Below, one piece after another: positions 7,377 to 31,600 of a stretch of 36,146 nucleotides of DNA. Source of the DNA: Candidatus Omnitrophota bacterium (GTDB lineage: Bacteria; Omnitrophota; Gorgyraeia; Gygaellales; Profunditerraquicolaceae); NCBI GenBank assembly GCA_029563245.1, contig JAKQSG010000094.1:1-36146 (forward strand), read 5' to 3'. Position 1 is the stretch's first letter. The number at the start of each line of letters is the position of its first letter. Under the pieces are notes generated by a model that saw only the letters and a list, made by a program, of their open reading frames with translations, did not search any database and had not been told where the DNA came from. The position numbers were made by a program, and so were the translations under genes.

Positions 7377-7403
7377 ATTATATCACCTTCTCCCAAAAGT
7401 CAA
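7377..7403 (-). promoter_or_regulatory. Sigma70-like promoter with extended -10 for the PilZ gene pair
   Basis: On the coding strand: TTGACT (7398-7403), a 15-nt spacer, then TGaTATAAT (7377-7385), which is a perfect -10 with an upstream TG. It lies about 30 nt upstream of ATG 7346, with a GAGAGGG SD in between. The short spacer lowers confidence in the -35 element. Confidence 0.5.
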
Positions 7404-7463
7404 GGCTTATAGGATTCTGCCATACTTAAGCTATCCCCATACATATCAAAAGGTTGCGACACT

Positions 7464-17000: not shown

Positions 17001-19622
17001 CAAACTTGCCGGGCTATCCTGAATTTTCCTGGCAAGCTCAAAGAAACCAAAATTAATGATGTTCTTTGCCCTGTCTAACCCCCGGCGCTCCAGATCTCTC
17101 GCATACCAATCCCCCCAATTCTTAATCTTGCTTTTCTCTTCGGGTGAAAGACTGTTATAGGCATCCACTTCTCGCCTTACCGCCTCGGCCTCGCTCTTAA
17201 GGTTAGAATGTTTTTTCGCCTCGTGGCGGATATACATATATATCAACCCTAAAGGCGCCGGATGCTTCGGATTAAATAATATATTGGAGAGGTAAGTCTC
17301 TTTCCCGCGGTAGCTGGTTGCCAAAGCATTGTTCAGGCGGGCAACCAAAAATTTAACCCCTTCCTGCTTTTGCCTGGCGATTTCTTCTTTTAAATAATCC
17401 GGGGTATTATCAATAATTAAATAATCCTTAAGTTCCTTTAAAACCTCTATAATTTCCGGATTTACCGCTCCCTTTTTGCGTAAGAATGAGGCTGCCTGCA
17501 GATCAGAACTATCCCTAATTCGAGGTAAGGTAGAATCCCAAACGTACTCATCATTTAAAGGTGCATAATCAAAAACATAATTCCCTTTATCATCAACCGC
17601 TACCGGCCTATATACATTAAAGGAAGCTTCCTTCTTCTCAGAAGATTTGTTTAAAACAGATTGCCTAAAGGACAAGCTCTTTCCCCTGCCCTCAACCCTC
17701 GATAGCATTGATTCAGCAAGGTGGGTCGGAAAATCCCTCTTTTCATATTCATTTAGGCTTTGCGGCCTAAGGAAACGGTAGAATTTACCGGAAGAAAGCA
17801 GGAAGAAAGTGAAAATAGTGGTAAAAAATATTCCCTCCCAGCTAAATTCAGGATTTAAACCTGAGAAAAATGATAAAACCAGAGGGGCAAAGGCTAAACC
17901 ACTAAACCCGGGAATCAAATCAGTAGCCTTAAACTTAGTCAACTGCTCAATAGAAAGCTTTTTTACCTCATAGTATTGCGCCGGAGGGATACTATTGTCT
18001 TTCGACATCCAATCAATTAAACCTGCCCTTATATACCCTTCCCCATCTACGGGCCAAATGGGTAATCCCTGAAGGCTAATACCAGAAATATCAGTTTTCC
18101 CAAAAAGCCTTTTTAAATGCTCAAGCCTAAACTTCTCAAAAGCATGAATCCTGGCTGCCCAGTAAAATGGACCATTCCTTGAAAGTAAAAATTCCAACTG
18201 AGGCTTGCCTTTTTGCAAAGCTGCCCGCTTTAGATTATTTACCCACCTAACCGCTCCTTCTGCCTGACCAATCCTTTTAGCCTCAGCAATAATAAACTCT
18301 TCCACATCCCTCAATGTCCTTCGCGCATACCCCTTAATAGTATGCACACGGATATCATAGGCATACTGATCATCCTCTCCGGGAATAGGATAAAGTCTTG
18401 GATGTTGCCTTAAAAATAAACCATGGCTTTTAGCCCATTCTTTGATATCTTCACCTAAAATATTCCTGCCATTTAAGGGCTCATTTATCCCCAAGGCCTT
18501 CATAGCAACGCTAACAGGCAATGCCAGCCTTGCGCTATTAACCCAACATTCATTAAGGCTTCCCAAATAATTATGCCTGGCCAGGAAAGTTATCACCTCT
18601 GCATTCAATTTTATTACATCAAGTGAGGCATAGACGTTTTCGGGAGTGTGGCTACCTATCAACACCATCACCCCATTCAAGAAAACATCCTCAATCAGCT
18701 TATAAAAAACTGGGTAGAAATCTTCCAGGGGAGATAAAGAACGCACAAATTTAACATAATCCTTAGCCTTCTCCCGCATAAATACATAATCGTCTCCGGG
18801 AAGTTTTCCGTGCAGGAAATTTTTGAGCGGATCAAATCTTTCTTCTACTATTTTTATTAAATTACTGGTTTGTCTTAAGAACTGCGAAGTAAATATTTTT
18901 AATGGGTCATTTAACCGCAGGGAGGCAGCCTGAAGAGCAATACCAGCTTCTTCATCCTGCTGAGATTCATGAATCCAGACCTGCTCGATAACAAACTGGC
19001 TGGAGAATTTGGTAGGCAAAAGTATATCTTTAATTCTTTGTGCGTCTAAATTCCACTCAACCCTTCCTAAGCCATCTCTAAAAGCAACCACGCTTGAATA
19101 ATCAATATCCCCAAGTAACATCTGCTTATTTACCGGCGGGCCGTTAATCTTGCCCGAAGAAGCAATGTAATCCTCCAGCAACTCTAATGCCCCTGCCAGA
19201 TTAAGAAAACCTTTAGATACACTGGGTTCGCCTATAAATTTATCCGCTGCCATGCGCATTTCAGTGGAAGATATGGGATGAGAATATCCGGCTGACCTAG
19301 CCTGAGCAGGGGCAGAGACTAGAATAAATACCCCTATAGCAAATAATGCGGGGTATCCTCCCAATAAGAAGGGTAAAGCCATAAACCCTAAAGCAAAAAT
19401 CCGGCTTATCTTCAGGGTTAATTCTGTTGCCCTTATTCTATCTAATCCAAGGCTTGAAATCATTAATGAACGGAAGATCCTTCCCCCGTCAAGCGGGAAA
19501 ACCGGGAGAAGGTTGAATAACCCCAGCATAAGATTGGCATAAGAGATACTTACTAAAAGACCAAGCCAGCTGCCTAATCCAATATGCCATGCTGTAAAAG
19601 GAGCAATGAAAAACAGGGACAA
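8088..19622 (-). CDS. C-terminal 3,844 codons of a giant mosaic membrane protein: M50 C-terminal half, NagB/6PGL-like, PAS, JAMM/MPN, HEAT array, hydrolase-like domain, Pro/Asn-rich tail
   Basis: An uninterrupted 11.5-kb frame. Translated motifs: NLLPVFPLDGG (19483-19521), GVGADGHFGFNFPG (15661-15722), PAS-like IDSKGNIVWVNKAWEKLFGF, HEFGH (12954-12968), JAMM HYHPGYDLTPSFGD (11961-12002), many D..VR..A...L HEAT repeats, and DWHSWGT (8896-8928). The track start is a TTG with no SD, placed inside a transmembrane helix, so I do not think it is a real initiation site (see findings). Confidence 0.9.
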   Translation of the reverse strand: MSLFFIAPFTAWHIGLGSWLGLLVSISYANLMLGLFNLLPVFPLDGGRIFRSLMISSLGLDRIRATELTLKISRIFALGFMALPFLLGGYPALFAIGVFILVSAPAQARSAGYSHPISSTEMRMAADKFIGEPSVSKGFLNLAGALELLEDYIASSGKINGPPVNKQMLLGDIDYSSVVAFRDGLGRVEWNLDAQRIKDILLPTKFSSQFVIEQVWIHESQQDEEAGIALQAASLRLNDPLKIFTSQFLRQTSNLIKIVEERFDPLKNFLHGKLPGDDYVFMREKAKDYVKFVRSLSPLEDFYPVFYKLIEDVFLNGVMVLIGSHTPENVYASLDVIKLNAEVITFLARHNYLGSLNECWVNSARLALPVSVAMKALGINEPLNGRNILGEDIKEWAKSHGLFLRQHPRLYPIPGEDDQYAYDIRVHTIKGYARRTLRDVEEFIIAEAKRIGQAEGAVRWVNNLKRAALQKGKPQLEFLLSRNGPFYWAARIHAFEKFRLEHLKRLFGKTDISGISLQGLPIWPVDGEGYIRAGLIDWMSKDNSIPPAQYYEVKKLSIEQLTKFKATDLIPGFSGLAFAPLVLSFFSGLNPEFSWEGIFFTTIFTFFLLSSGKFYRFLRPQSLNEYEKRDFPTHLAESMLSRVEGRGKSLSFRQSVLNKSSEKKEASFNVYRPVAVDDKGNYVFDYAPLNDEYVWDSTLPRIRDSSDLQAASFLRKKGAVNPEIIEVLKELKDYLIIDNTPDYLKEEIARQKQEGVKFLVARLNNALATSYRGKETYLSNILFNPKHPAPLGLIYMYIRHEAKKHSNLKSEAEAVRREVDAYNSLSPEEKSKIKNWGDWYARDLERRGLDRAKNIINFGFFELARKIQDSPASLFLEDHFVIANYGEIHLKKRFDSEKRLHSIFAIVIFSACFIPVLLGYSHVAMAIAGFFSCALIYFIFCRYLGAINLKYFALDSSLADDYKKVVSGTPSEGQVYIKNLLRVINAYKYHPSWRHAQARVKIVMLHFLSQIVQLQNFGEKTELKLAPKGVLVRSPVRSNMASLMLIEHILASTEEAFSEPAWVSLVKVVAENKEQWLGSVLSVMSSAVRISYCADNLVKLLYKADNRQLDRYKIKDIAAFCNSLYELIILLAQEHKDFKCQAILCLCDLIQHGKGNETIFAVNLLRELKFHIVEASNFAMVSSDVVSGIIKDIIEKSGHANITFGAGSTITKPYQYGPRSIPSFAEHLALRKQDFNWDDKVRAWQLSEYAGLGPGHHFSQAYALRESLFSRIFNSIENNVSFIGDSPDPRGYVERQNKAGGIDLIISGVGADGHFGFNFPGTTADPSSAGRLVKVRLTPEVMSSSHESYPDIEKNPFAWTLGLADIIKPTAAKKPQVIVLVLGKKKAQMLRESLEEADSPLAKIIRELDTTIIVADEAVHNLIPDYLQRCSTAMRSIYGKEKDKYYNIDLAVHMIDSKGNIVWVNKAWEKLFGFSEEQVIGQPVWFFVNEENQILSEARVKDKLSKRLENLPDIPFVPFRRAAESTVKVDIREWQVVDAAGEVIGIISTLKLAGDGDGSLSSNTLAGKRLGEGHNQSGKILVSLLSLGGLVALITLFIIPNWSAIAALITQLEFSLSGFFAHPATAGPLGIILAFPLLFGIVSVVSERTVPGMLRKVRNIHHELLRIAYARVAGEDVRRKLSGIKIRLMHAGLIRTPEIIKFIEAGNEFAACSILSKLSSQLTEEAKAVLKKERAEAVARQAITEESNGRITILFRGKYETHTLYRWLRKLAAILNSLAIEERDLRKFRIRLRKTLEIGSKEKIESEIPDYVKYVKGAHLEDKQEVFRKLQTALGFLSFNRLNLALETLNAILPLIDLRLADIEGEDASLDNWRQQLRLKASMRLSRVQKRIGFVNNLAQGKVFDPSSLATMQDKLTRLLSWPFLSEPDFTGMRNEINRSLEFLPGLAIPKKVKKNSQGLLDKLAILRNMIEAAIEVNEFMIKHGSFINHSVDRQNAFNRAYQEWAASSNLVRGAPRYWKARLYQAVFISEKNSTLCFKALETILIAISLPEFRKLFHNLKSHNRRNILRVLLSYVYRKPPIINSRYIPLSERNDFLFKIIAAARIDYHLDGKAKNEDIAKLYHAFDLKPIALGNEGGLAILPPKALCNLWTLQMRFDNEGNFINFVTPERFIQDLCCIIENDLDIKVELNENGEYIFNPRSEKKIKLSDALTASIWNHEFGHFETEGDDIVINSDEAIANSRRGEEDFYLNTAAIIWYWFYFNREGREWRVQNIQGASIDLFIEELFIQSPALSFLSQNKKAIAEISRFATFINIKFHSFAIEVKSAGDLLTSPGYLKLKESFRSSQERSFGRAIFTDEVLAIENNFIPGVVSNEGLFCSKYTKAIADNLNRRNLFRTGDSIITFFQDSGVLDVPLSLEITGDYEGVLNVRGLGVFEIYPKERSFKEGVPLWNIVVVAKGKKLPLNQFIARHRIINPRLPWFYEISGRIVERESRKGAIRTTHLTGGHRILTLKEDRSVSTLGVYYPDLSHSQRVILSYHYHPGYDLTPSFGDLREFLKEKRCGARAEIIFALDRNLPGDNKARFYMLQEGVDISKAFLEISLVEGVILSKGKEDSEEERVRFTQEHFLTGDFILTRDGNIHCGYGSRALQPLGDKSLQEGHNKSGHSLVGALILGALAAFMVSVALIHWTTICAFIADVITVYPTSSLLGVIFLGYFKFGGRKGKVDAAFRGWFNGLRYWFSLFIIGISVFVNNGCISVDARRMEFYRSLKEVIAISNINEEGKEKGLEKYFLENCYLGDDIMLEPTEHLKMAGITQEDLYKCYQKLVRSRNFNVAFYAARCLAMLEDPAGSLVLGQGLKGGYNINDFFPRGTVSSGDDQNEIRNYVRMQAAFALARLEDPTAIGHLQYLLSKESNSISAVRVYAAYSLSIFDDLEALEILIKYSADPDRSVRLECLRGLLMFSDPRLFDIFVDALKDKKIDAVDIAISGLSVSGNKRAAVYLENIIQESKSANTRSKALAALYRFEGDRVLNLALAKVRDNAEEVRMTALSILSQLNGLDAREALISGLNDRSHLVRMTAALGFWGGKFDKTQAPDLIARLLKRERNSDVRLLYIGILGESNDNAAREALRNIIRGGNLREAQAAILSSAFNADDKMVHQLADLVSDSREEIRQVSVAALHTRIDDPVIFNKVFERMGDVSLRVASSAAVVLSTQINNHPELKSKLIGFMDRGDLETRLGILSGLSQAGSPIAVEFAKPYLNSQDLALKQMAVFSISQLVDHNTLPLLSPLASDIDPSVRLSAIRGLAMINSSETVPLLVKALKDEQFPVRQAAISGLAQRIHDSPHLTFTIRPFLRDDHWQVRQAAVEALGKSTHSNVPEILLPTIQDESVFVRQAAVANLARFDTPEVIKSMLPLLKDRDVFVRRDTIVALGSKVCAHLELAEPIKEAAKVDSDEIARRYANYALECGKNEGINHGPVKIRSMQILIPGFDDFYLFVTARNQEIDWSNKHPLKDMLERIGVTSRAFNWSGNIQDTFSARSRVLDFFLENVRDAARMRVDIDMDWHSWGTPIGTTIFSGSPKATEAFRLAREAGIKINISCLGSPDMLHRVSFLENKYKETVKIINLWSPADRLSFPSVPVNLGVKGNIGIPETSHNDWFDYSMGNRFIRMKFPDLDMPQIHRMIKQSNPIGWIYRPRVGSWPGMYNFNSVAPLGHFRQAGNINISPALSEMQRFRAPDNYYLHQGLLSSQAFRASMLPGAIFQNNFRPLPSGQLNFNVYNNNRIIMPPTIKFRAPSITVPKFAPITVPRSNFVNPGITPRIPTYIPPIRYTPPPMRNLN

Positions 19623-22600
19623 AACAATACTACACCCAGGGAAAGATTAAACAACGGACCGGCAAAGGCTATCCTTTTTTCTTGGCGCGGCGTAAAACCA
19701 CAACTCTCCAACGTAGCCACTCCTCCTAAAGCCGTAAGGAGAATCTGGGTAGCGCCAATTCCGTATTTCGCGGCCGACTTTATATGGGCAAATTCATGCA
19801 TAGTAACCAAGGTAAAAATAGAGAATAGAAAAGCTAAAGCAAGAAAACCGTTGCCTGCCGCTAATCCCAAGGCAAAAAAGAAGCTCCAATGTAATTTAAC
19901 CGGAACTTGGCTTATCTTAAAAAGTGTAAACCCTTCATTGAATTTGCTAAAGTATACCCCGGCATGCATCTTAACGGCATCCCCTTCATCTTGAACTCCT
20001 ACAAATTCGCCATTACCATTACGATACGAAAAATACCCAAACTCCCTTTCGCATCCGCTGATTAAATAATGATTAAATAAGACTCTCTTAAAAAAGCCAT
20101 TCTGAGTAGGGGTATGCCCGACAATAAACCAGCAGCTTTTGCTATCATAACCTAAAGCCTCCAGAAAACTGCTTAAGTCATCTTGGGAATAAGAAAATAC
20201 TTCTTCCCCTTCAAGAGAATATTCACAAAAACGCCCCATCAGCAGATTGACTAGCATAGAATTCTTTAAATTGGTAGTAGAGAGATTCCTGATCTTCTGA
20301 AGTTTAAATCTCCCCTTAACTGGCCCGGCATGGGCAGCGACCAGATTATCGGCAATGAGAAGAACCGGGCTTGCCTCTACAAACTTTCTATAAAGATCAA
20401 GGTACTTAGATCCAAAACGATCTTCCAGGGCCTTACGGTAAGGGATACTCTGATCAATAATAAACCCGCAAGGCCCGCTTTTGCTCCAATGATAATTAAT
20501 CAAATCGTGATTACCCAGAATATAATAAAAATTATCCGGATTACTTATCTTTAAATCCATAATACGGCGCATCAGTGCTATAGAGCTATCTGGGTTAGAA
20601 TACAAATCTACAACTAGACCTTCCAGATCTTGCCTTTTCACCCCAGTCTTGGCCCATTTAATGAAATCACCCATTTCTACCCTAACATCCGGAGTCGCAT
20701 GTATGGCATCGCCGAGAATAAATAAGGCTGCCTTTTTATTTCTTATCTTCTCTAAAACAGAGTCTTCCAGGATTTCTTTGCCTTCCACCGTAATTCTCCT
20801 ACGATGGTTCAATAGAGCGTCAAATTTATTGACCCTGCCGTGTAAATCTCCTATTATGATAATTTCAAAATCGCCGGGTGCCTTGCGTAAATCAACTACC
20901 GCCCTGTCCTGATACACGCCAAGCCTCACTGCCTTGATAAACTCGTTTAACCTTGGCAGCTCACTATCAGTTTGCAAGCTATACATGCAAAATACTGAAG
21001 ACCCGCTAACACCACCTTTTATATTTGAATCACTCCAGGTCTCTTTATCCTGATCCCAAACCCTTCCCTTGGAATAAATCTTTAGGCCAGCAAGTCCCTT
21101 GAAAGCATGATTCTTGAAAGGATGTGCGTTAGAAGTAACAAACCCTTTACCCTTGTCCATCGCACATATATAAAGATTATTATGATTTTTATTAAAGAAA
21201 ATAACGATCTTCCCTAAATCATCCCCGTGTCTCCCTACATTAATAGACAAGGCATTTATAAGTTCGCGCAGCCTTTCTAAATCTTTGCCTTCAATCAAGC
21301 CATCTAAAGCAAACACAGCCTCAGGCAAAATATACATTCCACCGCTAAAAATTAAATACCCGTCTTCTTTTAATCTCTCAACAAATGCCTCAGTCAAAAT
21401 CTTTTGTTTATCACTATTTAACCCATCCGCATTATTCCAAATACGCATAAGATTAAGGCAGTCCTGGATAAATATCTGACTCTCTACTCTACGCTTTTCT
21501 TCAGTTCTATTCCTTTTTAAATAGTTAAGCCAACCTAAATCCGGCCTTAAACCGATAGAATTATCTTCCAAGAATTTAATATGGCTGGACAACAGGTGAT
21601 TATCCCTAAGATACTCTAAAGTTCGCTCTCTGACCCTCTCTTCAGATAATCCCGGGTTAACCAAATGATAGAATTCATGGCCTGAGAATATCGCCCTTAA
21701 TTGTTCCGGAGGACCCCGCAAGGTATTAGGGTTAATGCGAAGGATACCATTTACCACCTCAGCCGGAAAAGGTAAAAGATAGTCGATAGCTATCTTATCC
21801 ATACCCAAAACTAAGCCTTCTCGCATAAGAGCGTTTATTCCTCCAAGATAATCAATTATATTCCCAAATTCCCCCTCAGAAGGATTACGCACCAATGAAT
21901 CAACCCCCGCAGGATTCATATGCGCAGGATAAGATTGATGGCTACTATCATTCTGAGAGTAAAGGTTGGCAATAATAATGATTGCCCAAACCGATAATTC
22001 AGGATATGAATAGAGCGCACGGAAGGTCTCGTCATTGGCAACAGCAACCGTAGCCTGAAAGATAGCCTCGTTGTTTTTTATACCTAAAAGGGCATTATTA
22101 TTTTTCTGACGATTTAAGAATAATATTAAATCCTCCACGGAAAGATTAAGTTCTGACCCTTTACGGTAAGGCCTATCTGCAAGCATAATCTCTGCTATAT
22201 CCGCCCAATAGATCAGTTCCCCTAAGAAACGTAACTTCGCATCCTTTATTGCCTGAGGATGATGATGATTTAAGACAAGCGACAGGACTTCTTCTGAAAC
22301 ATCTAACTGCAGCTCATTAATTATTTCTACGGAATAACCTGCATGGGCATTAATCAACTTACGCTGAGGATCATTTTCATCGCGCGAGATTTTCTTATCC
22401 GAAGAGATAAGCTCCCATATTTCACTGTTAAAAATCTTCCCCAGGTCATACAGGGTAAAGGCAATCGCAATTATATCGATATCTCTTCGGCTTAAATTAA
22501 GGATTTCAGCAATCTCTACGGCAATTATCCTCCCCCTATATATATGCCTTATCAGATGATCCAGGTCACCGGATAATCCCTTCATATCAAATACGCTACG

Positions 22601-25600
22601 GTAAAGACCAGCGATTCCTTTTATCTTCAGAATATCGCTATTCGTAATTACTCCATCCTCTTTAGGGCTTACGCCGATTAATTTTAGGGCCGCTGCGAAG
22701 GACCGATCCCCACCAGCCACGGAAGGTAGACCAATCGCTTGTTTATTCCGCAGCAGCCCGGTAAACGAAAACGCTTTCTTTAAGGCTAAAATAAAAGACC
22801 CCCGCTTTCTGCCGGGGCCTCTTTCTATTTTTACGTACCTCTTCCCCAAACTGACCCAACCGCCATCAAAATACCTCAAGAAGACTTCTAATTCCCATAG
22901 GCCGGGATTAGGAAGATAGATCTCATTGTTAAGATAATAATTGCCGTTAAAGAATATATTACCCCGGCAGAATAGCCTGGCCTGCAAAGGCACGCTGCCT
23001 CTTTGATCTCTTAGACGGTATAAAACCTTTGCCTCTATATTCCTTCCTGCCTCTCTATCTAGCCTGGAAACAGCCCTGATACGCTTTTCTGACCCGAAAC
23101 AATCAAGCATAAGCCTGGTATTCCAGGTGCGGTTCTTTAACCCAAGAGTTACCCTGGCTGCCTGTGTCAAACTTGTTTTATAGGTCTTACCCCGGGCAAG
23201 CGAAACTGAGTTAATACTAACAAAACTGGCCAAGTTGCCGGCAGTAGACAGGATTATTCTTTCTGTGGCTTTTCTTATCATGGACAAAAATAGTTCCCTT
23301 CTCCTCCCTGGCCTGCCGTGTAACTTATTCAGGTATATCCTTGAACGCAAAGCGCTTATCCCCATGCTAAAAGCACTGCTCCAGAAACTCATGGTTGATG
23401 TCTCCGGGGAATCAATCCAGAGGATAGGCATCTCTCTTAATCTATACCTTAATGCAGCAGCCCTGCCCAGCCATTCAACATCTCCGGCAAAACCGTAGAC
23501 GAAATCATGGTTAAAACTTACCTTAAGACATCCTGATTCATCGGCTGAAAGAATACCTATCGGAGAGATGCGTTTTATGACCTTTCTACGGAACGCCTTA
23601 AAAGAACGCTGATTATCGCGGATAAACCTCAAATCTTTATATAAAAACCTAACCCAGGCATTAAAACCTACCGTCCCCAAACGGCGGGTGAATTTACGAA
23701 GAGAGACTATCGCTCCGGGTTTACGTATAGAACCCCAAACAAGATCATCCCCCTTATTTACTATACCTTCTAATAATAGCCCGGTCAGCCCCAGGTGGGC
23801 CGAAGGGTCTCCATCGGTATACATTATGATATCCGCCCCCTGGTCTGCGGCTATCTGCATTCCGGCAGCCAGTGCGCCGTGCTTGACCGACCCCATGGCT
23901 ACCTTATCCTCCGCCGACAAGGAATAAAGGCAGATTTTATCCCGCAAATCAACATATTCGCTGCGGCTTAGAATCCCCCGCAATACATCCACTGTCTTCT
24001 GCTGCCCCTGCCCACTGTCATCTCCGTCGTTAACAAATATAAAACGGCCTTTTACCAGAGGGTTCACAGAGAGAAATTCCCTGAAAAACTGCTCTGTCTT
24101 TAACTTAAACCATCCCCTTCCCAGTGGAGGATCCGGGTATTTAGCCTGCCCCCTCCAAAGAGAAATGCATACGGCTATCTCTAAAGGATCGTGGATATTG
24201 AAGACTGTCAGATAAGAATCGATGAACATTCTCGCTTCAGGAAGGATTCCTTTGCTTGGATCAGATACTAATTCTTTAAGAAAAACAGCAATATCTTTAG
24301 CATCGTTACGGTTTAGGGAAATGGCTAATGCCTTACTCAACAAGGCGCATATTGCCTGGTCGGAAAGCACCGCCCTGATTTCAGGGTCGCGATAAGTATC
24401 GACTGCAAATAAATGCAAGAGATTAAGCTTGGCGTCTATTGTTTTACATTCAGAGAAAATAATACCTAAGCGGCTGGCTCTATCCTCTGATAAAAGAACG
24501 CGCCTTAGGCTTTCTCCCGTTAATAAATCAACAGCCTCTCCCCACCAGGGCTTATTAAAATCCTGCATCATCCTTGAAAATTCCAGCATTAAGGCCTCAA
24601 CCGCATCAGCCTTTTCGCTGGAGTTATTAAGAAGGTCTAGGCTCAGGATAAACCAACGGGCAGCATCCCATCCAAACGTACCTATTCCCAGCACATTGGG
24701 TATCGATTCTAATTCCTTTCTACTAAGTTTATTCTTGGTATAAAGCTGATAGCCTTTTAACATAGCGATAAGATTCTCTCGGCTGTATTTCCTACCAACA
24801 CCCTTTCCTCCGGCAAGCAGGGTATTCTTAAACTCCCCTATGCGGGGCTGGCTTGAGCGCGCTTTTTCCCAGTCAAAAAGCGCAATTACAGAATCACCAT
24901 CCCATTTTACATTGCCTAAACTTAAATCACCGTGCAGGATAGAAGAAGGCAGGGAATTATAAGATACATCCGACATCTCCTTAAGAAGATGCTGCATCTG
25001 CTCCTTGATAAACCTGGCAAAGTTTAGAAAGATAAGTTCTCCTTCTTCAAGAAAAGGATTATTCTGCAACTTCTTCTCCAAATTTTCAAAGTCAGAGAAA
25101 GCAGTGATAATATCCTGCGGAGATAATTCCGGCTTGCTGCCGCTAGCCCTGAAGCCCAAGAAAGCATTGTGCAAGAGCGCCGTTAACCTTCCAAGGCTAT
25201 AAAAGTGCTTTGGGGTAGCCTGACTAAAATTAAGTTCTATACCGGATGAAATGTAGTCTTCTAACGTATAATACCAGCTGCCTATCTTAGTAAAATATTC
25301 CCCGCCCCTATTTTTATAAACCAACGGCACAGGAATACCAAAAGATATAGCCCTTTGTATGACCGAAATCACAAATTCTGCTTTTCTACGGCTATCGGTA
25401 ATAAACTTTAAAACAAAGTCACCCTTAGGCGCATGGATTAAAACCGGCCTTCTATTCTCGATTCCGCCCCGTAGAAACTCGTATGTGACCTGCGAAACTT
25501 CACTGGCTCCTATATCGTATTCGGATAGCGCTATGGACAATTTCTCTTCAATATCAACCTGTTCCGTGCGTAGATCGTTTACTTTTGTAGAATGGCTGCG

Positions 25601-28600
25601 CCAGAGTGCAACTTTATTATTAATAGGCTCAGCCTGGGGTTGATAAGGGACAAAGGCATTTCTGTAAACCCTATTGTATTTCTGGGGTTCTCCAGATTCA
25701 TTAAGAAAAGCGAATTTTTCAATCTGCCCGCTTCTAACAATATCAAACATCGGCTTGCCTTTTTTAAATCCGAATTCAGGTATTTCATCTGCTGGCTTGA
25801 CTAAACGTATCAAAGGAATATTCTTGTATCTTGGGTTGGGGATAAACTCAGGGTTGCCGTCTTTACCTTTAACCACCCAGTAAGGAGCGCCATTATGGCG
25901 TTTGATATATTTAAAGCTTGATTGGGCGTTGGTTGAGACCCAGTCAGTCATTACAAATGGAGTGTTACCTATATTAATAGTGATATGTTGATATCCCGGA
26001 GGAAATAAAACATGATCTCCGGGTTCAGCAAAGACTGCCATCACATCCTCTATTTCTTCGTATCCCGGTTTATCGATTGAACTGTCTTCTTCGGGATAAT
26101 TGTGCCTTACCTTAAAAAGCAGGAATATATTACGGCCGTAGTTATTTTCGTAAACCTCGGGAAGGTTAGTCTTGTGATGATGGCCTTCGGTACGGATATA
26201 TTCTTCATAGCGCACACCGTTTAAAAATGCGGGTATTGTTCCGGCAGGTAAAACAGTGACATCGGGCCTTAAGTTATGCGCTTTGATACTATCCCAAAGC
26301 TTCTGGTCATCCCAATAAGGACCCTGTTGGCCGCAGTAAAGTACCTCGTTAGGGTCGCCGTATCGGGTTAAATCTGGCTGCTTAGTAATGTTGCCTTGGC
26401 TGTCTGTATATTCATAAGCCATCATCAGGCTCTTCCACAGGGGAGCTTGGGACATGGTATTTGCTCCGAAGGTCTTATACCAAGGTTGAACCCAAATTCT
26501 TGCCTGCGGACCATAGAGCACTTCCATATCCTTAGGGTCAACAAAACAAGGCAACCCAACCTGTGCCGATAAATCAAGCGTTTTAAAGAACCTGGCTGTA
26601 TCGGCTAAAGCCTTAGCCTCGTCAAACTCATAATTAATTAAATGGCTTTTTAGCTCATGGTAAAATATCTTTTTCTGAAGGTATCCGGATAATTCAAAGA
26701 AATACGGATGGATGTAAATAGTTCTGGCAGCAATATCGCAGGCAGCGACGTTTCCTTGCGTAAAGTTGAAATCATTTGTGCTAAGTAAACGCCAGACGTA
26801 TAAGGAAGGCGGTGCGCGGCCTAAAATGACTTCCAACTCTTCCAAAAGCTTAATTATAACTTCTTCTCTGCCTCGGATTAACTCCGAGGAGAATTTTCCT
26901 CTTAAATTAAACCCTGCCACTTCCACTGCCCCTGACTGCCAGTTCTTACCAAATTTATTAACAGATGCTTCCTGCACTTTAGCAGAGACAGGGAGAGGAT
27001 AAGCATTAGGATTGTTAATATTGGGCGTATCCTTTAACAGCTGCGGGAAGAAACCGCTTGAGTTATATTCCTTAAAAAGATACCTGAGCCTCAAAGATAA
27101 AATCTCGGCTATATTAGGATGAGCATTCTTTGTCTGATAGTACGCCGCTTCCAGGAAAAGAACAACCCCTCTTATCCCGAGATACTCTTCCAAAGCTAAG
27201 AATATATCTTCAAAGACGATGCCAAGGCCTTCGTTAATGGCGATGATTACCTCCGATTCCCTTATTTTCTGAATTAACCCGCCGAAAGAGGCTATCTCTA
27301 TCCTGATCATACCTCCGTCTGGCTTAATCTTGAAATCTTTTAGAGTTACGAAACGGGGGTACAGCCTTCTCTCAAAAAGGCTATCAAAAGCTATAATACA
27401 CTGCATAAGATTTATTTCGTCGTCCTTAATATCCAACAGCTCGGATAAGAACCTCTTATCCTCATCGCTTAAAGACTGAAAGCCTATCTTAGAAAGCTCC
27501 CTCTCCATGGACAAACGATGGCTTACGTAAAGGTGGCTGTCCAACCCAAACCTCTCTGCGATTACCCTGTAAACATCCTGAGCAGGAGTATAATATCTGA
27601 TCAAAGATTTGGCGATCTCTCTCTTTAGGCGCATCATATCTTCCCCGGACAAATCCTTCCCCAGATACCTGCCCGTAGACAATACCAGCTGCAGGGAAGG
27701 AGTAGAGAACATTTCCCTTATCTTCAATCCCACATAATCCCCTTCAGATATAGAGATATACGATGCCCCCCTCAAGACAATAGGGTCGTAAGAATGGCTC
27801 AACAGCCGATACTCCTGCATCGCTCTCTTGAATCCGATTCTTGCCAAGACTAATTCAGCATTCTTTATCTGGATACCCGAATCAATTAAATACCTTGCCA
27901 CCAGTTTTCTGGATTCCCCCCTGACTTTCTCCCCTCCGGCAAAACAAACCTCAAGCCCTGATATTCTTCTCCCGGAAAGATCCCTAAAATCCTCCTCTAA
28001 TTCCTCATAATCAGTCTCTGCCCTCAAATCCTTGACATTTTTAGTGATGTCAAAAGAAAAATCTTCCCTTATCCTGAAAATGTCCTTAACAGAATTATCA
28101 ATATATTTCCTGAGTTCCTCCTCCCAGCCATATTTGTTTTTATTGCAAGCTTTGGCCCAGTCACAGACCCTCTCCCTGGCCTTCTGTAATTCACATATAA
28201 ATAAATCAGCCTGCTCTGGTATGAAATCATGCCACTTAAAAACCTGGCCCAAGTCCAATGCGCCTACACGTCCCACCGAAGGATCGTAGCCGTAATTCTC
28301 AGGCTTAATATCGAAATTTATTATTCCTCTTAATATCTTGGCCCTGATACTTAATAACCAACAGTCTATAAGTAATTTGGCTTTGTCTAAATCACCCTCC
28401 TCTATAGCCTCGGCTAGAATGCCGTGGCATCTTCTTGCCTTAAGATCAAAATCCCACAATCCTTCCTCGAATAACACTGAAACAAATTTCTGCACTACTG
28501 CCCTTTTTACCGTTTCATGGCTTACCCTTCCTTCCTCATCAACCACATTTATTTCCAGGTCATCGAAAGTAAGGTATCTTATAGCTAAATGCCCGTGGTA

Positions 28601-31600
28601 TTTCTGGGCCAGCTGATAACTTTCCATGGCATTAACCGTTATCCCGGGAAGACGAAACGCTATCTTCGCGGGAGCTTTTAAATCTTTAACAATAATCGTG
28701 TTGTCTCTATTTAGATAAATGTGGTTTGTATCCGCTCCCGCGGTTCGGCTGCTGAATACTTCCTCTTTCAGGCAATTCCTGAAGGCCATACCGATCATTT
28801 CTATGATTTTATCTACGTCTATGCCCGCCTCACGGAAATCATCCGCAAACTGATGCAGACTGAAATGTCTGTACATCTCTACCAAACAACCTGCTAACCT
28901 GTTGTAACCATCCAAGTAAGAAAAGCCGAGGCTATAACCTCTTTTATAAAATACCTGCCGAAAATACCTTGTTTCTCCCGCATGCAGAGCATAAAGATTA
29001 ACTATCTCCCGCCCGCTGTTAAAATCGTATCCCGTAATCACTACCTTATCCGGCATAACGCCGCTAAAGTAAACCTTTAGATGAGGGAGAAACTCATAAA
29101 CCCTCCTTCTTAACTCTTCGGGAAGATGCAAGTCTTTTTCGACTAAGGATATTTGCTCAACCTCTTTGCGTACTTTATTTATAAAAACCTGAGAATCCAA
29201 GAATTTTCTTAGTTTGTCAAAACCTTTTTCTTTTATGTAGGCATTCATTTCCAAAAGCGCGGATTCAGTAAAATTTATACCCTCCCCAAGCGCTACAACC
29301 GAAGGAGGGGCATCCGCAGGCGGACCGGATGAAAATACTTTGATCCCCTGGATACCTGTAACCGCCAGGTCATTCCCTTCCTGCCCAAACTCATCCCCGA
29401 AATAAATTATATTCTGCGGCTGTATACCGTATTTTGCGTATATATATTTCAGAGCCTCAGCCTTATTGATCCCTGCCGGGGTTACGGCCAGGGTAGTTTT
29501 TCCTTCTAGAACAACCTCAATCCCGAATATGCCCTTAGACTCAAAGAGATCCCTTATATGTTGAGCCAAAGCCTGCCTGATCTTCAATGAAAGCTCCGTA
29601 TCCTCCTTTAATTCCTCTATCCTCACAACAACGCGGGTAATTCTATCCTCAAACAGAAACTTCTCAGAAGGTATTGATTCTTCCAAAGAAACCATAGCTA
29701 TACACTCTCTGATAATAGAAAATACCTTAGCCTTATCCAAAGGAAGCCCTTTCCGATAAACAAGGTCCTCCCGTCTCACCCCGTTCTCAAAATAAAACAC
29801 CTGGGTACTGGAATTTGCAGCAATAATGAAATTATCGCTATGGTCCTTAAAGGGCTCTACTATCCTGGCGATATTGGCCTCATCAAGCATATTGCCGGTA
29901 TTGATACCCACCAGCATCCCCTTATCCAGCAATCCCCGGACTTGATTAATCATGGAGTCCTCTAACGGTTTTCTGCGAAGGGCGAGCGTCCCGTCGATAT
30001 CAAACATTGCAATATTTCGGGGTCGTGCCTTAATCGGGCCAACCTTTACTGAATCACCCACGAGCTGAAATGTCCTCTTCTTAATCTCATCGATTGCTTC
30101 CAGAGCAAAGTTGGTAACCTTCTGCTCTTCAAGCGATCTTATAGCCAAAAGGTCCTCGTCTTTTCTGCCCTCAAACTCCGCAGCCTTAACCTCCGCCTGA
30201 GTATAGAAACGCATCTTAGGTTCTGTTCCCGAAGGCCTGATAATAAGCCATGAACCATCTTCAAATATAAATTTATAACCCGGCTCATTAAACTTAGGCT
30301 CTGTAATATCTACGCCGCGATGCGCCTCTTTTATAACTTTCCCTGCTATTGTAGCCTTGCTTGCGGACCTGGCTTGACGGTAAATTTCTTCGACTTTCTT
30401 TATCACCTTATCGCGGTCAACCTTCGCCGTAGGCCCGGCAAGGCTATACTGTTCATTCGCGCCCACAAAACATCCGAAAGTCCTCCATAATTTTATATAT
30501 GCATCCCATATAGAAAATCCCTTTGAACGCACATATTCAAATAGCTCCAGCATTACAACCGCAGCCAAAAGGCCGTCTTTCTCCAGAGTGTGCCCTCCTA
30601 AAGAAACTCCGTTTGACTCCTCAAAACCACCGAGTATCCTTGCGCGGGCAAAAGAAAATATCTCTTCTATTGCCTGCTTCATCGATGGTATATGCATATC
30701 CCCTATAATATTGCCCAGGCCTTCTTTGTAACGGTCTCCGTAAGATTCGAAATCAAAGGCATAACTATTAAACCAATCCCTCATAATAATCTCATCTAAG
30801 GATTCTTCCGCTATCTTGCCAAAGCCTACCGGAGGCCTTCTTACATGAAAACCGTAGGCACGCGCTATCCTCTCAATCAAGTCAGTAGTAACCCAGGTAG
30901 CCATTACAAACCCGTCCCTCATTAACCCCTGGTATGCCTTGCCAAGCTTTCCTTCAGAAGCCAAATCGTGCATAAATTCAATGCGGGACCATAATAAAAA
31001 TGCCCATAAATCGTTTGCCTTCATTACCTGCCAATTGCCCTGGTTATCCTTAAAAGCTATGCCGCATCTGTCTGCGTCAGGATCAGTAGCCAATACTATA
31101 TCAAAACCTTTTTCAGTAGCATATTCAATTGCCGGGCCTAATACACGTTTGTCTGCCGGATCCGGAGAAAGCGGCCTGCCATTACCATCTACAAGCCTGT
31201 GATCAGGAAAATTACCGTTAAACCCTTCGTGCTCGGAAAATACGGAATATTCATATCCCAAGTCCTTTAGAATCCCAGGCAAGACTGCCTGCCCCGTACC
31301 AAAAACAGGGTCATAAAGAACCTTTAACGTGGTGGGCTTCCCCGGAACTAATAGGTGTGACCTAATCTTAGAGGAGAAATACTTATCAAAATCTTCATCC
31401 GGCCCTAACATCATAACCGGCTTATTGTCCTGGCCTAAAGGCAGTGTATTGATATCATCAACGCTATCCATAGAAACCAGAGCTATCTCTCTTATAATAG
31501 CTAACCTCTGAACCCCAAATAACTGCGCACCAATCTCATTGCCGATCTTAAAACCGGTATCGCTCTTAGGATTATGGGAAGCGGTAATATAAATATAGCA

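What the first reader, a model, noticed from the sequence alone, without database searches (positions are those of the whole stretch)
23330..26560. Cupin-type phosphoglucose isomerase, APH-family (sugar?) kinase and GT2 glycosyltransferase in series
Seen in sequence:
- Cupin PGI: YIRTEGHHHKTNLPEVYE (26147-26200) and FPPGYQHITIN (25973-26005).
- Kinase: VSQVTYEFLRGG...ILHGDLSLGNV (24908-24940)...ALFDWEKA.
- GT2: RFIFVNDGDDSG (about 24018-24050), IIMYTDGDPS (23801-23833), QRSFKAFRR and GDVEWL.

Established knowledge, as I recall the signatures:
- T.GH.H...E.Y plus PP...H...N defines the cupin phosphoglucose isomerases described mainly from Euryarchaeota.
- H.D....N...D is the Brenner motif of the APH / choline / maltose / N-acetylhexosamine kinases.
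- D.D plus (Q/T).GF(K/R).FRR is typical of GT2 (DPM1 / GpgS-like).

Inference: together with the mutase, the phosphatase and the NagB-like domain, the protein carries most steps of a route from hexose-phosphate interconversion through activation or transfer to dephosphorylation. I did not see a nucleotidyltransferase (G.GTR) motif, so the donor-forming step is missing or unrecognised.
Basis: partly seen in the sequence, partly recalled or inferred. Interest (0 to 1): 0.68.

Follow-up and report, generated by a model that had tools for sequence, protein, structure and literature searches.

The report
Sugar-enzyme cassettes in Omnitrophota giant gene
The stretch really encodes a cupin-type sugar-phosphate isomerase, an APH-fold kinase and a family-2 glycosyltransferase. 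They are not a conserved three-step pathway but two separately shuffled cassettes inside one of the giant multi-enzyme genes already described in Omnitrophota bacteria.

Summary
All nine motifs sit at the stated coordinates on the minus strand, inside one ORF that runs off the window end.

**Domain calls**
- Cupin PGI (PF06560, 74.8 bits) and APH (PF01636, 53.5 bits) pass Pfam's cut-offs.
- GT2 does not pass alone (12.5 bits). It is secured through homologues: 270 hits, 17 of 31 aligned members match Pfam GT2, and the family profile hits P. furiosus Dol-P-Man synthase at 2.6e-17.

**Context**
- The nearest relatives are Candidatus Omnitrophota MAG proteins.
- The ORF and the next ORF are one gene split by a frameshift. 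Together they exceed 9,300 aa and are incomplete at the 5' end.
- This class of giant multi-enzyme protein is already described, including PGI and PGM domains.

**The "route" reading is only thematically supported**
- Cupins 62-80% identical in three other giant genes are never followed by the kinase or GT2.
- Kinase, helical domain and GT2 recur together in 5 of 7 kinase-centred loci, and in reversed order in about 900-aa proteins.
- The kinase's nearest solved relatives are a ThrB2-type homoserine kinase and YtaA, not sugar kinases.
- The cupin keeps its metal ligands but lacks PfPGI Tyr152 and His158.

**Side finding**
- An undescribed 150-aa HExxxH module with a minigluzincin-like predicted fold punctuates these giant proteins and directly precedes the cupin.

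The parts
19574..36146 (-). Upstream part of the giant ORF (5,512 aa from the listed TTG). The frame is open to the window edge, so the gene is truncated at its 5' end. It has no hydrophobic segment before residue about 5411.
   Evidence: frame open at 36113-36146. (Kyte-Doolittle scan). Pfam and NCBIfam domains.
26543..27007 (-). Zincin-like 'delimiter' module, copy 2 (residues 3036-3190). It starts with YPLPV, carries HELKSH (HExxxH) at 26642-26659, and lies directly upstream of the cupin.
   Evidence: Self-HMM searches. AlphaFold2 model with pLDDT 84.5 and pTM 0.79. Top Foldseek hits are minigluzincins: selecase, abylysin and jannalysin, probability up to 0.97 but E 0.07-0.3. No Pfam family.
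35273..35734 (-). Zincin-like 'delimiter' module, copy 1 (residues 127-280, HELISH). It lies upstream of the HEAT-like and methyltransferase region.
25646..26530 (-). Cupin module of the cupin-PGI family (residues 3195-3489; Pfam GPI match 25865-26296). Putative metal ligands are H3311, H3313, E3319 and H3376.
   Evidence: Pfam GPI 74.8 bits. Only cupin PGIs are hit in the PDB. Residue mapping. The homology block with L008 and L009 ends at residue 3488-3489.
24533..25615 (-). APH-fold kinase module (residues 3500-3860; Pfam APH match 24854-25483). Key residues are K3569, the H3727-G-D3729...N3734 Brenner motif and the D3747-W-E metal motif.
   Evidence: Pfam APH 53.5 bits. PDB 2ppq at 2.3e-6 with the single sequence and 9.1e-11 with the family profile. 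Invariant G-D, N and D columns in alignment A7.
24188..24532 (-). Helical domain (residues 3861-3975) that accompanies most of the closer homologues of this GT2 as an N-terminal extension.
   Evidence: Co-occurrence table. No significant Pfam match.
23243..24187 (-). Divergent GT2 (GT-A) glycosyltransferase domain (residues 3976-4290). It keeps VNDGDD, the DxD motif D4099-G-D4101 (23810-23818), D4166-N-Q-R-S-F-K4172 and F-A-G-D-V-E-W-L.
8088..19622 (-). Downstream part of the same giant gene (3,844 aa): the C-terminal half of the M50 domain, several TM segments, a weak NagB-like match, PAS and HEAT repeats.
19607..19646 (-). Interval that holds the frameshift splitting the M50 (site-2 protease) domain between the two ORFs.
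   Evidence: Pfam M50 profile positions 1-99 are at the end of the upstream ORF and 159-217 at the start of the downstream ORF. The relative P0005 reads through in one ORF. A Logan contig calls a 4,118-aa gene across the site.

Best explanation
**What it is.** The region is part of a giant multi-enzyme gene of a Candidatus Omnitrophota bacterium. The gene is at least 9,300 aa, incomplete at its 5' end, and split in this assembly by a frameshift.

**Architecture.** The three domains are real enzyme-type modules, but they belong to two evolutionary cassettes that happen to abut here.
- Cassette A is a 150-aa zincin-like HExxxH module followed directly by a cupin of the cupin-PGI family.
- Cassette B is an APH-fold kinase, a helical domain and a divergent GT2 glycosyltransferase whose nearest solved relatives are the polyprenyl-phosphate glycosyltransferases.

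**Location (inferred).** Both cassettes lie in a stretch of about 5,400 residues with no predicted membrane segment, upstream of the first membrane domain (M50). They most likely sit in the cytoplasm, where ATP and nucleotide sugars are available.

**Likely chemistry (all inferred, none shown).**
- The cupin carries out metal-dependent aldose-ketose isomerisation of a sugar or sugar phosphate. Whether the substrate is glucose-6-P/fructose-6-P is open.
- The kinase phosphorylates a small-molecule hydroxyl with ATP.
- The GT2 transfers a sugar from a nucleotide sugar with inversion. The kinase and the GT2 probably act on the same substrate chain.

**What is shown.** Domain identity, retention of the core catalytic residues, and the cassette architecture.
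For: **Domain identity.** Pfam GPI and APH score above their cut-offs. GT2 is supported through 270 homologues, 17 of 31 aligned members that hit Pfam GT2, and a family profile that hits 5mlz at 2.6e-17.

**Catalytic residues.**
- Cupin: H3311, H3313, E3319 and H3376 align with PfPGI H88, H90, E97 and H136, and PPx3Hx3N is exact (ligand identities from PMC6627849).
- Kinase: K3569, HGD...N and DWE are present, and the G-D, N and D columns are invariant in 7 homologues.
- GT2: the DxD motif and the invariant D and K of D(T/N)Q.(G/S)FK are kept.

**Organism and class.** The only close homologues are Candidatus Omnitrophota MAG proteins. Giant multi-enzyme proteins with PGM/PMM, glucose-phosphate isomerase, GT, methyltransferase and HEAT content are described for this phylum (bioRxiv 10.1101/2023.11.21.568195; bioRxiv 10.64898/2026.06.07.730766).

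**Cassette structure.**
- The delimiter plus cupin block (residues 3030-3489) is 68-69% identical to blocks in L008 and L009 and ends just before the kinase.
- In L008, L009, L010 and P0003 the cupin is followed by other modules.
- Kinase, helical domain and GT2 are adjacent in P0001, P0005, P0007, P0009 and P0011, and in 5 of 7 metagenome loci at 42-61% identity. The order is reversed in the roughly 820-940-aa proteins P0016-P0018 and P0154.

**Topology.** There is no hydrophobic segment before residue about 5411.

**One gene.**
Against: - No enzymatic activity is shown for any domain.
- The GT2 fails Pfam's cut-off on its own.
- The cupin lacks PfPGI Tyr152 and His158, which are implicated in proton transfer (PMC6627849), and its H-x-H to Glu spacer is one residue shorter than in PfPGI.
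- The kinase-GT2 pairing is frequent but not universal. L016, L017, P0004 and P0012 have one without the other.
- The side of the membrane cannot be fixed because the N-terminus lies outside the window. West-Roberts et al. report that such domains are often predicted to be extracellular, though they doubt that prediction.
- The structure model of the cupin failed (pLDDT 32).
Confidence: 0.62

Rival explanations
1. The giant protein is a single-polypeptide metabolic route. The mutase, cupin PGI and NagB-like domain interconvert hexose phosphates. The kinase and GT2 activate and transfer the sugar. The HAD phosphatase removes the phosphate, as in compatible-solute synthesis of the GpgS/GpgP or MPGS/MPGP type.
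For: The sugar-phosphate domains are thematically coherent in one ORF:
- PGM/PMM domains I-IV, a HAD-IIB phosphatase with weak S6PP-like matches, and a PRPP-synthase-like domain.
- The cupin PGI family domain, the APH kinase and the GT2.
- A weak NagB-like match.

Related giant proteins also carry PGM, HAD and GT2 domains.
Against: - Module order and content are not conserved. Cupin orthologues 62-80% identical are followed by other modules; detectable domains further along include NUDIX and HAD (L008), NAGPA and a metallophosphatase (L009) and a PRK-family kinase (L010).
- 0 of 7 kinase-centred loci carry the cupin.
- No nucleotidyltransferase is present.
- The kinase's nearest solved relatives are not sugar kinases.
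- The GT2 resembles inverting polyprenyl-phosphate transferases, not retaining GT81 GpgS.
- The mutase and phosphatase lie 1,200-1,800 residues upstream, on the far side of a zincin-like module.
Confidence: 0.15
2. The giant ORF is a polyprotein. The repeated zincin-like HExxxH modules, possibly together with the M50 domain, cut it at cassette boundaries. The cupin isomerase and the kinase-GT2 unit would then act as separate, free or membrane-tethered enzymes.
For: - The module recurs 2 times in this ORF, 6 times in L008, 5 in L009 and at least 3 in L010, at intervals of roughly 750-2,900 residues.
- It sits at the edges of the blocks that are shuffled between genomes.
- The model is confident, and all of its best structural matches are zincin metallopeptidases.
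- The two His, a PYFF motif and a Gln are invariant, and the motif Glu is kept in 8 of 9 sequences.
- HExxH or HExxxH occurs 7 times in the two ORFs against 0.46 expected, with 0 of 2,000 shuffles reaching 7.
- West-Roberts et al. raise cleavage as an open question, but through C39 and S8 domains.
Against: - No Foldseek match reaches E<=0.001, and TM-scores are about 0.4-0.6.
- The motif is HExxxH, not the canonical HExxH.
- One copy, in P0003, has lost both His.
- No cleavage site is known and no proteomic evidence exists.
- There is no canonical copy between the cupin and the M50 domain, so kinase, GT2, HD and metallophosphatase would stay joined.
- The four other HExxH sites are not detectably homologous to the module.
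Confidence: 0.25
3. The enzyme-like domains are degenerate, non-catalytic ligand-binding or scaffold modules of a surface or contact protein used in the episymbiotic or predatory lifestyle.
For: - The domains are strongly divergent. GT2 is below Pfam's cut-off, and the PRPP-synthase and GlmM-like matches are far below the NCBIfam cut-offs.
- The cupin lacks Tyr152 and His158.
- Some kinase homologues have lost the Brenner His.
- Giant proteins of this phylum are proposed to mediate attachment.
Against: - The residues that matter most for catalysis are retained and conserved across homologues: four cupin metal ligands, the kinase Lys, Asp, Asn and Asp, and the GT2 DxD with its invariant Asp and Lys.
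- The segment has no signal or TM element for about 5,400 residues.
Confidence: 0.08

Closest known systems
Giant multi-enzyme proteins of Omnitrophota ('Archaeovorin'-type, West-Roberts et al. 2023 bioRxiv 10.1101/2023.11.21.568195; 'multi-enzyme metabolic cluster' class, Nielsen & Lui 2026 bioRxiv 10.64898/2026.06.07.730766)
   Same: - The nearest homologues come from the same phylum.
- The ORF is very long and tiled with many different enzyme domains: GT, methyltransferase, PGM/PMM, HAD, HD, peptidase and HEAT.
- It is membrane-anchored by TM segments.
- A sugar ABC importer and a glycoside hydrolase lie next to it, as those papers report. Glucose-phosphate isomerase and PGM/PMM domains are named explicitly.
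   Different: - The gene seen here is at least 9.3 kaa, below the 30-kaa and 10-kaa thresholds those studies used, and it is cut by the window.
- No SecA-DEAD or C39 domain is seen in the window.
- Term searches of the two papers found no mention of the cupin type of PGI or of a repeated zincin-like module; the kinase-GT2 cassette was not searched for in them.
Cupin-type phosphoglucose isomerase (Pfam PF06560; P. furiosus PfPGI, PDB 1x82/1qxr; T. litoralis 1j3p)
   Same: - The Pfam match is above the cut-off.
- The His-His-Glu-His metal site is kept.
- TxGHxH...ExY and PPx3Hx3N are present, and the C-terminal NPR(Y/W)K is kept.
   Different: - There is an N-terminal extension of about 80 residues, an 8-residue insertion before the metal motif and an insertion of 12-19 residues in the barrel.
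- Tyr52 is deleted, and Tyr152, His158 and Tyr160 are replaced by Val, Ser and Phe.
- The H-x-H to Glu spacer is 5 residues instead of 6.
- The domain is embedded in a giant protein rather than being a 190-aa dimeric enzyme.
APH/CotS/ThrB2 branch of the eukaryotic-like kinase fold (PF01636; A. tumefaciens homoserine kinase 2ppq; B. subtilis YtaA 2q83)
   Same: The Brenner motif HGDxxxxN, the downstream D-W-E metal motif and the beta3 Lys are present, and similarity runs over the full length.
   Different: - The scores are far below the homoserine-kinase and CotS NCBIfam cut-offs (30 against 271 bits; 27 against 173 bits).
- The substrate is unknown.
- The domain is fused to a GT2.
- From my own knowledge, CotS-type kinases sit next to glycosyltransferase genes in Bacillus spore-coat operons. 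This is a loose parallel that I did not test.
GT2 polyprenyl-phosphate glycosyltransferases (P. furiosus DPMS 5mlz; ArnC 9bhc; GtrB 5ekp)
   Same: It has a GT-A domain with a DxD motif and matches along the whole catalytic domain through the family profile. Equivalents of DPMS Arg131 and Ser135 are present as R4136 and T4140 (residue roles from PMC5526996).
   Different: - There are no TM helices or clear interface helices next to the domain.
- DPMS Gln93, Arg117, Lys178 and Arg202 are not conserved: Ser, Ile and Ala replace the first three, and the A-loop is replaced by W-x-D-S...S-T.
- It carries its own N-terminal helical domain.
- It is therefore a separate GT2 subfamily, not a DPMS.
Minigluzincins (selecase, proabylysin, projannalysin; PDB 4qhf, 4jiu, 4jix), for the delimiter module only
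   Same: The size is about 110-150 residues, and the predicted fold has a helix, a three-stranded sheet, an active-site helix with His-Glu...His and a following helix. They are the best structural matches.
   Different: - The motif is HExxxH instead of HExxH.
- There is no sequence-level match to any Pfam or PDB entry.
- It occurs as an internal repeat in giant proteins, not as a stand-alone soluble protein.

Membership tests
Cupin-type PGI (PF06560) | Match to the family HMM above the curated cut-off, and better than to generic cupin models | tested here: met
   GPI scores 74.8 bits against a cut-off of 20.7. Cupin_2 scores 18.4 and Cupin_1 16.4, both below their cut-offs. All 8 PDB hits at E<=0.01 are cupin PGIs.
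Cupin-type PGI (PF06560) | Metal ligands His88, His90, Glu97 and His136 (PfPGI numbering, PMC6627849) | tested here: met
   H3311, H3313, E3319 and H3376 align with them and are invariant in 5 family members. Its numbering reproduces every residue named in the paper, and its C-terminal 71 residues match the PDB alignment.
Cupin-type PGI (PF06560) | Signature motifs TxGHxHx6-11ExY and PPx3Hx3N (Hansen et al. 2005, recalled from memory; the paper is not held) | tested here: inconclusive
   PPGYQHITIN matches PPx3Hx3N exactly. TEGHHHKTNLPEVY matches the first motif except that the spacer has 5 residues, not 6-11.
Cupin-type PGI (PF06560) | Residues implicated in proton transfer and substrate contact: Tyr152 and His158 (PMC6627849); also Tyr160 and Tyr52 (from memory) | tested here: not met
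   Tyr152 is Val, His158 is Ser and Tyr160 is Phe in an ungapped stretch of the HMMER alignment. Tyr52 falls in a deletion. The replacements are invariant in the Omnitrophota family.
Cupin-type PGI (PF06560) | Glucose-6-P / fructose-6-P isomerase activity | not testable with these tools
   This needs an enzyme assay.
APH / phosphotransferase enzyme family (PF01636) | HMM match above the cut-off, Brenner motif HxDxxxxN, downstream Asp metal ligand and beta3 Lys | tested here: met
   53.5 bits against a cut-off of 23.2. The residues are H3727-G-D3729...N3734, D3747-W-E and K3569. The Gly-Asp, Asn and second Asp columns are invariant in 7 homologues.
Anomeric sugar kinases of the APH fold (NahK, maltokinase, MTR kinase) | Closest similarity to a characterised sugar kinase | tested here: not met
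   PDB hits with the single sequence and with the family profile are the homoserine kinase 2ppq, YtaA 2q83 and 'aminoglycoside phosphotransferase' entries. No sugar kinase appears. NCBIfam's best matches are homoserine kinase and CotS models, all far below their cut-offs.
Glycosyltransferase family 2 (GT-A, inverting; PF00535) | Match of the sequence itself to the family HMM above the cut-off | tested here: not met
   12.5 bits, E 0.14, against a cut-off of 23.3.
Glycosyltransferase family 2 (GT-A, inverting; PF00535) | Homology to bona fide GT2 proteins through intermediates, and to solved GT2 structures | tested here: met
   270 homologues at E<=1e-3 in 1.84 billion proteins. 17 of 31 aligned members hit PF00535, best 1.1e-26. 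The profile hits 5mlz at 2.6e-17, ArnC at 2e-7 and GtrB at 8e-4.
Glycosyltransferase family 2 (GT-A, inverting; PF00535) | DxD metal and diphosphate motif, and the nucleotide-binding acidic motif after beta2 | tested here: met
   YTD4099-G-D4101 aligns with DPMS 89-DAD-91, and VNDGDD aligns with VVDDDS (residue roles from PMC5526996).
Glycosyltransferase family 2 (GT-A, inverting; PF00535) | GT-A three-dimensional fold | not tested
Dolichyl-phosphate mannose synthase proper | DADLQH motif, acceptor-phosphate residues Arg117, Arg131 and Ser135, Lys178, A-loop Arg202, and interface or TM helices (PMC5526996) | tested here: not met
   Gln93 is Ser, Arg117 is Ile, Lys178 is Ala, and the A-loop is replaced by W-I-D-S...S-T. 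Only Arg131 and Ser135 have equivalents (R4136, T4140). No hydrophobic segment lies within 1,100 residues.
Omnitrophota giant multi-enzyme ('Archaeovorin'-type) proteins | Omnitrophota origin; a very long ORF tiled with GT, methyltransferase, peptidase, HEAT and sugar-metabolism domains; TM segments | tested here: met
   See, with the literature.
Omnitrophota giant multi-enzyme ('Archaeovorin'-type) proteins | Length of 10-30 kaa or more, SecA-DEAD domain, N-terminal C39 or S8 peptidase | not testable with these tools
   The ORF runs off the window, so its N-terminal part is not available. None of these domains is in the 9.3 kaa seen.
Minigluzincin metallopeptidases (delimiter module) | HExxH zinc motif, third ligand on the next helix, and the minimal zincin fold | tested here: inconclusive
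   The fold-level best matches are all zincins, with probability up to 0.97 and TM about 0.6 normalised to the target, but E is 0.07 or higher. The motif is HExxxH. Both His are invariant, and the Glu is present in 8 of 9 sequences. Sub-threshold Pfam hits go to DUF2201_N and PhageMetallopep at E about 0.03.

The most novel reading that the evidence does not exclude
These giant Omnitrophota ORFs are cassette-built polyproteins.
- A previously undescribed HExxxH minigluzincin-like module, with no Pfam family, marks the start of cargo cassettes and cleaves the chain there. This would release units such as the cupin isomerase, and the module boundaries would be the points where cassettes are exchanged between genomes.
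- Within cassette B, the APH-fold kinase would create a phosphate monoester on an acceptor. The DPMS-like GT2 would then glycosylate that phosphate, as its solved relatives do with polyprenyl phosphate, giving a phosphodiester-linked glycoconjugate.
Probability: 0.15. Interest if true: 0.8.

Novelty: new member of a known kind. Interest (0 to 1): 0.42.

Why it matters
- The finding is a correct piece of annotation, but the object belongs to a class that two preprints already describe: Omnitrophota giant multi-enzyme genes carrying sugar-phosphate enzymes, PGI and PGM included.
- The useful addition is how to read such genes. Adjacency of domains inside them is weak evidence for a pathway, because modules are shuffled as cassettes. 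Conservation tests separate a real unit (kinase, helical domain and GT2, kept at 42-61% identity and in either order) from a chance neighbour (the cupin).
- The repeated zincin-like module gives a concrete, testable handle on a question those papers leave open: whether giant proteins are cut into pieces, and where.
- The kinase-GT2 unit is small enough, at about 800-900 aa, to express and assay.

Tried and rejected
- **AlphaFold2 model of the cupin** from a 3-sequence alignment failed (mean pLDDT 32, pTM 0.23). No fold search was run on it, and residue mapping rests on sequence alignment only.
- **Word-indexed homologue search with the GT2 domain alone** found nothing at E<=1, although the exhaustive search later found 270 homologues. 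That negative result was an artefact of the index.
- **Hansen et al. 2005**, the source of the cupin-PGI signatures, is not held. The signatures are quoted from memory.
- **Delimiter module against the PDB and Pfam by sequence** gave no significant hit. Only the fold-level comparison gives a lead.
- **The four further HExxH/HExxxH sites** (upstream ORF residues 1213 and 4812; downstream ORF residues 800 and 2219) look alike by eye, with a beta-strand, a spacer and a His-Glu helix. Iterated HMM searches recover neither each other nor the module, so I do not count them as copies.
A 4-sequence alignment worked.
- **Internal promoters** are not enriched (10 found, 9.2 expected). Terminator-like hairpins are mildly enriched (13 against 5.6, SD 2.8), but they are weak, on both strands and inside the ORF. 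I reject internal transcription units as an explanation.
- **GpgS-like (GT81) and compatible-solute synthase readings** are rejected because all solved relatives are inverting polyprenyl-phosphate GT2s.
- **Misassembly or a chimeric contig** is rejected. The cupin-kinase(-GT2) order is seen in independent NCBI MAG proteins P0001 and P0002 at 82-83% identity. The order kinase, GT2, metallophosphatase, M50 is seen in P0005.

Full report
**1. Observation**

The window holds two very large minus-strand ORFs: 19574-36112 (5,512 aa) and 8088-19622 (3,844 aa).

Pfam confirms two of the three calls directly:
- Cupin PGI family PF06560 scores 74.8 bits, E 7e-21, against a cut-off of 20.7, over residues 3273-3416.
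- APH PF01636 scores 53.5 bits against a cut-off of 23.2, over residues 3544-3753.

GT2 is not significant for the sequence alone. PF00535 gives 12.5 bits, E 0.14, and the best PDB hit is Dol-P-Man synthase 5mlz at E 0.33. Both weak hits point the same way.

**2. The GT2 call is secured through homologues**

- An exhaustive phmmer search of residues 3960-4310 against 1.84 billion representative proteins found 270 homologues at E<=1e-3 and 72 at E<=1e-10. Many lie in multi-thousand-residue proteins.
- In an alignment of the window domain with 30 short homologues, 17 of the 31 sequences hit Pfam GT2 on their own, best 1.1e-26; the window domain is not among them.
- The profile of that alignment hits P. 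furiosus DPMS 5mlz at 2.6e-17, ArnC at 2e-7 and GtrB at 8e-4.
- The family consensus is VDDG...S.KGGA...GAD..YTDADlS...IGSR...R...S...N...DTQ.GFKaF...F.FD.ELL...PI.W.DS..ST. The window carries VNDGDD, YTDGDPS, DNQRSFKAF and FAGDVEWL.
- The DxD motif (D4099-G-D4101) and the invariant Asp and Lys are kept.
- Several residues that define DPMS proper are not kept. Gln93, Arg117 and Lys178 are replaced, Arg202 of the A-loop has no equivalent, and there are no adjacent membrane or interface helices (residue roles from PMC5526996).

It is a divergent GT2 of its own subfamily. It is not a DPMS, and nothing links it to GT81 GpgS.

**3. The cupin**

- Against the PDB, the single sequence and a five-member family profile both hit mainly or only cupin PGIs from P. 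furiosus and T. litoralis, best 6.8e-5 with the profile.
- In a MAFFT alignment with PfPGI, the residues H88, H90, E97 and H136 correspond to H3311, H3313, E3319 and H3376. T71, T85, G87, Y99 and N140 are also conserved, PPx3Hx3N is exact, and the C-terminal NPR(Y/W)K is shared (ligand identities from PMC6627849). It reproduces every numbered residue in the literature, and its C-terminal 71 residues match the PDB alignment.
- Tyr152 and His158, which that paper describes as involved in proton transfer and substrate contact, are Val and Ser here. Tyr160 is Phe, Tyr52 falls in a deletion, and the spacer between H-x-H and Glu is one residue shorter.
- These differences are invariant in the Omnitrophota family.
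- The domain is therefore a cupin-PGI family member with an intact metal site. Glucose-6-P/fructose-6-P specificity is unproven.
- A structure model from the shallow alignment failed (pLDDT 32).

**4. The kinase**

- The Brenner motif (H3727-G-D-L-S-L-G-N3734), D3747-W-E and the beta3 Lys (K3569) are present. The Gly-Asp, Asn and second Asp columns are invariant in seven homologues.
- The nearest solved structures are a ThrB2-type homoserine kinase (2ppq; 2.3e-6 with the single sequence, 9.1e-11 with the profile), the spore-coat kinase homologue YtaA (2q83) and 'aminoglycoside phosphotransferase' entries from structural genomics.
- NCBIfam's best matches are homoserine-kinase and CotS models, far below their cut-offs.
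- No sugar kinase appears among the hits. The substrate is unknown.

**5. Context: a giant Omnitrophota gene**

- The only close homologues are partial proteins from Candidatus Omnitrophota MAGs: P0001-P0003 at 74-83% identity, P0005 and P0007. The GTDB loci with the cupin include an Omnitrophota MAG.
- The upstream ORF's frame is open to the window edge, so the gene is truncated at its 5' end.
- The M50 peptidase domain is split. Profile positions 1-99 lie at the end of the upstream ORF and 159-217 at the start of the downstream ORF.
- The relative P0005 (NCBI MFA5437889.1) reads through this junction in one ORF, at 77% and 86% identity on the two sides.
- A Logan contig with identical downstream genes calls a 4,118-aa gene across the junction.
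- The two ORFs are therefore one gene of more than 9,300 aa, with a frameshift between 19607 and 19646 in this assembly.
- Other domains are a methyltransferase, a PRPP-synthase-like domain, PGM/PMM I-IV, HAD-IIB, HD, a metallophosphatase, M50, a weak NagB-like match, PAS and HEAT repeats.
- Downstream lie two PilZ genes, a sugar ABC importer and a GH2-like protein.
- This matches the 'Archaeovorin' or 'multi-enzyme metabolic cluster' giant proteins already described for the phylum. Those descriptions explicitly include glucose-phosphate isomerase and PGM/PMM domains and neighbouring carbohydrate importers.
- No hydrophobic segment occurs in the first roughly 5,400 residues. Together with the need for ATP and nucleotide sugars, this favours a cytoplasmic location. 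That is an inference.

**6. Are the three domains a unit?**

They are not.

- Three GTDB loci carry cupins 62-80% identical. In none of them is the cupin followed by this kinase or GT2. Domains detected further along the ORF include NUDIX and HAD in L008, a phosphodiester glycosidase (NAGPA) and a metallophosphatase in L009, and a PRK-family kinase in L010.
- In P0003, 74% identical over the cupin region, a different module follows the cupin.
- BLASTP blocks between this ORF and L008 or L009 cover residues 3030-3489 at 68-69% identity. They stop at the cupin/kinase boundary.
- The kinase, the helical domain (3861-3975) and the GT2 are adjacent in P0001, P0005, P0007, P0009 and P0011. They are also adjacent in 5 of 7 kinase-centred metagenome loci at 42-61% identity, none of which has the cupin.
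- The same three parts occur in the order helical domain, GT2, kinase in proteins of about 820-940 aa. One of these, P0154, is a separate gene in a row of large genes.
- The helical domain accompanies most of the closer GT2 homologues.

The stretch is thus two cassettes: [module + cupin] and [kinase + helical domain + GT2]. Only the second shows evidence of functional coupling, and even that pairing is frequent rather than universal (L016, L017, P0004, P0012).

**7. A repeated zincin-like module**

- Directly upstream of the cupin (residues 3036-3190), and again at residues 127-280, lies a module of about 150 residues. It starts with YPLP(V/L)P and has the core LGRAPP...W.L.ITTD..LT.GNVAACDI...TVYIHPYFF...QL.ILYHELISH...DE..A..DT.
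- It has no Pfam family and no PDB sequence match.
- An AlphaFold2 model from nine sequences is confident (pLDDT 84.5, pTM 0.79). Its topology is a helix, a three-stranded sheet, the HExxxH helix and a further helix.
- The best Foldseek matches are the minigluzincins selecase, abylysin and jannalysin, followed by other zincins. Probabilities reach 0.97, but E-values are only 0.07-0.3.
- The module recurs 6 times in L008, 5 times in L009 and at least 3 times in L010, at intervals of roughly 750-2,900 residues. It flanks the shuffled blocks.
- HExxH or HExxxH occurs 7 times in the two ORFs against 0.46 expected. The four extra sites are not detectably homologous to the module.
- Term searches found no mention of such a module in the two Omnitrophota papers or elsewhere in the library.
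- Whether the module is an active, self-processing peptidase is open. If so, the giant ORF would be a polyprotein.

**8. Verdict**

- The domain interpretation is largely right, with three caveats. GT2 is supported only through homologues. PGI specificity and a sugar substrate for the kinase are unproven. The GpgS likeness is not supported.
- The pathway inference is not supported by conservation.
- The object is a new member of a known kind, the Omnitrophota giant multi-enzyme genes.
- The kinase-GT2 cassette and the repeated zincin-like module are the parts that deserve follow-up.

Noticed in passing
window 26543-27007 and 35273-35734 (minus strand); also L008, L009, L010: A module of about 150 aa with an invariant PYFF...HExxxH core and no Pfam family recurs 2 times here and 3-6 times in related giant ORFs. 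It sits at the edges of shuffled blocks. The model is confident and its best structural matches are minigluzincin metallopeptidases, though only weakly.
   Followed up: partly
window 19607-19646 (minus strand): A frameshift splits the M50 (site-2 protease) domain between the two large ORFs. A related MAG protein and a Logan contig read through as one ORF, so this is an assembly error or a strain-specific or programmed shift.
   Followed up: partly
window 36113-36146: The giant ORF's frame has no stop up to the window edge. The listed TTG start at 36112 is not a real start, and the gene continues upstream of the window.
   Followed up: yes
window 863-8039 (minus strand): The following lie downstream of the giant gene and are conserved in several assemblies:
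- a 191-aa multi-TM protein
- two PilZ-domain proteins
- a sugar ABC importer (binding protein plus two permeases)
- a 769-aa protein with an N-terminal hydrophobic, signal-like segment and a Glyco_hydro_2_C match

In L001, further GH-like genes and a ROK-family gene follow.
   Followed up: partly
upstream ORF residues 1213 and 4812; downstream ORF residues 800 and 2219 (window about 32456-32473, 21662-21676, 17208-17225, 12954-12968): Four more HExxH or HExxxH motifs share a similar local pattern: a hydrophobic strand, a spacer of 10-25 residues, then the motif. With the two modules and M50 that makes 7 motifs against 0.46 expected. They are not detectably homologous to the module or to each other.
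   Followed up: partly
L009 about 11769-13118 (ORF residues about 3922-4372): In a related giant ORF the cupin cassette continues, some 700 residues after the cupin, with a phosphodiester glycosidase (NAGPA, PF09992) and a metallophosphatase. This hints at sugar-phosphodiester chemistry in these proteins.
   Followed up: no
P0016, P0017, P0018, P0154; L005 10001-12766: Proteins of about 820-940 aa carry the same helical domain, GT2 and kinase in reversed order. In P0016 and P0017 the Brenner His is replaced by Ala or Asn, while the catalytic Asp, the Asn and the metal Asp are kept. P0154 is a separate gene packed between other very large genes, with a PilZ gene nearby.
   Followed up: partly
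window about 33100-34300 (upstream ORF residues 600-1010): A PRPP-synthase-like domain scores well below the NCBIfam equivalog cut-offs (129.7 against 296 bits). It matches in two stretches, which suggests an insertion or divergence.
   Followed up: no
P0002 residues about 300-900: In a relative 83% identical over the cupin and kinase, the region upstream of the module is a PEP/pyruvate-binding (PPDK_N plus PEP-utilizer) domain. The window has an unannotated block of about 700 residues (residues 2300-3035) in that position. The window's block reappears in L009 between two modules.
   Followed up: partly
window 22500-27500: Terminator-like hairpins number 13 against 5.6 (SD 2.8) expected. They are weak, on both strands and inside the ORF, and are probably without meaning.
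   Followed up: no
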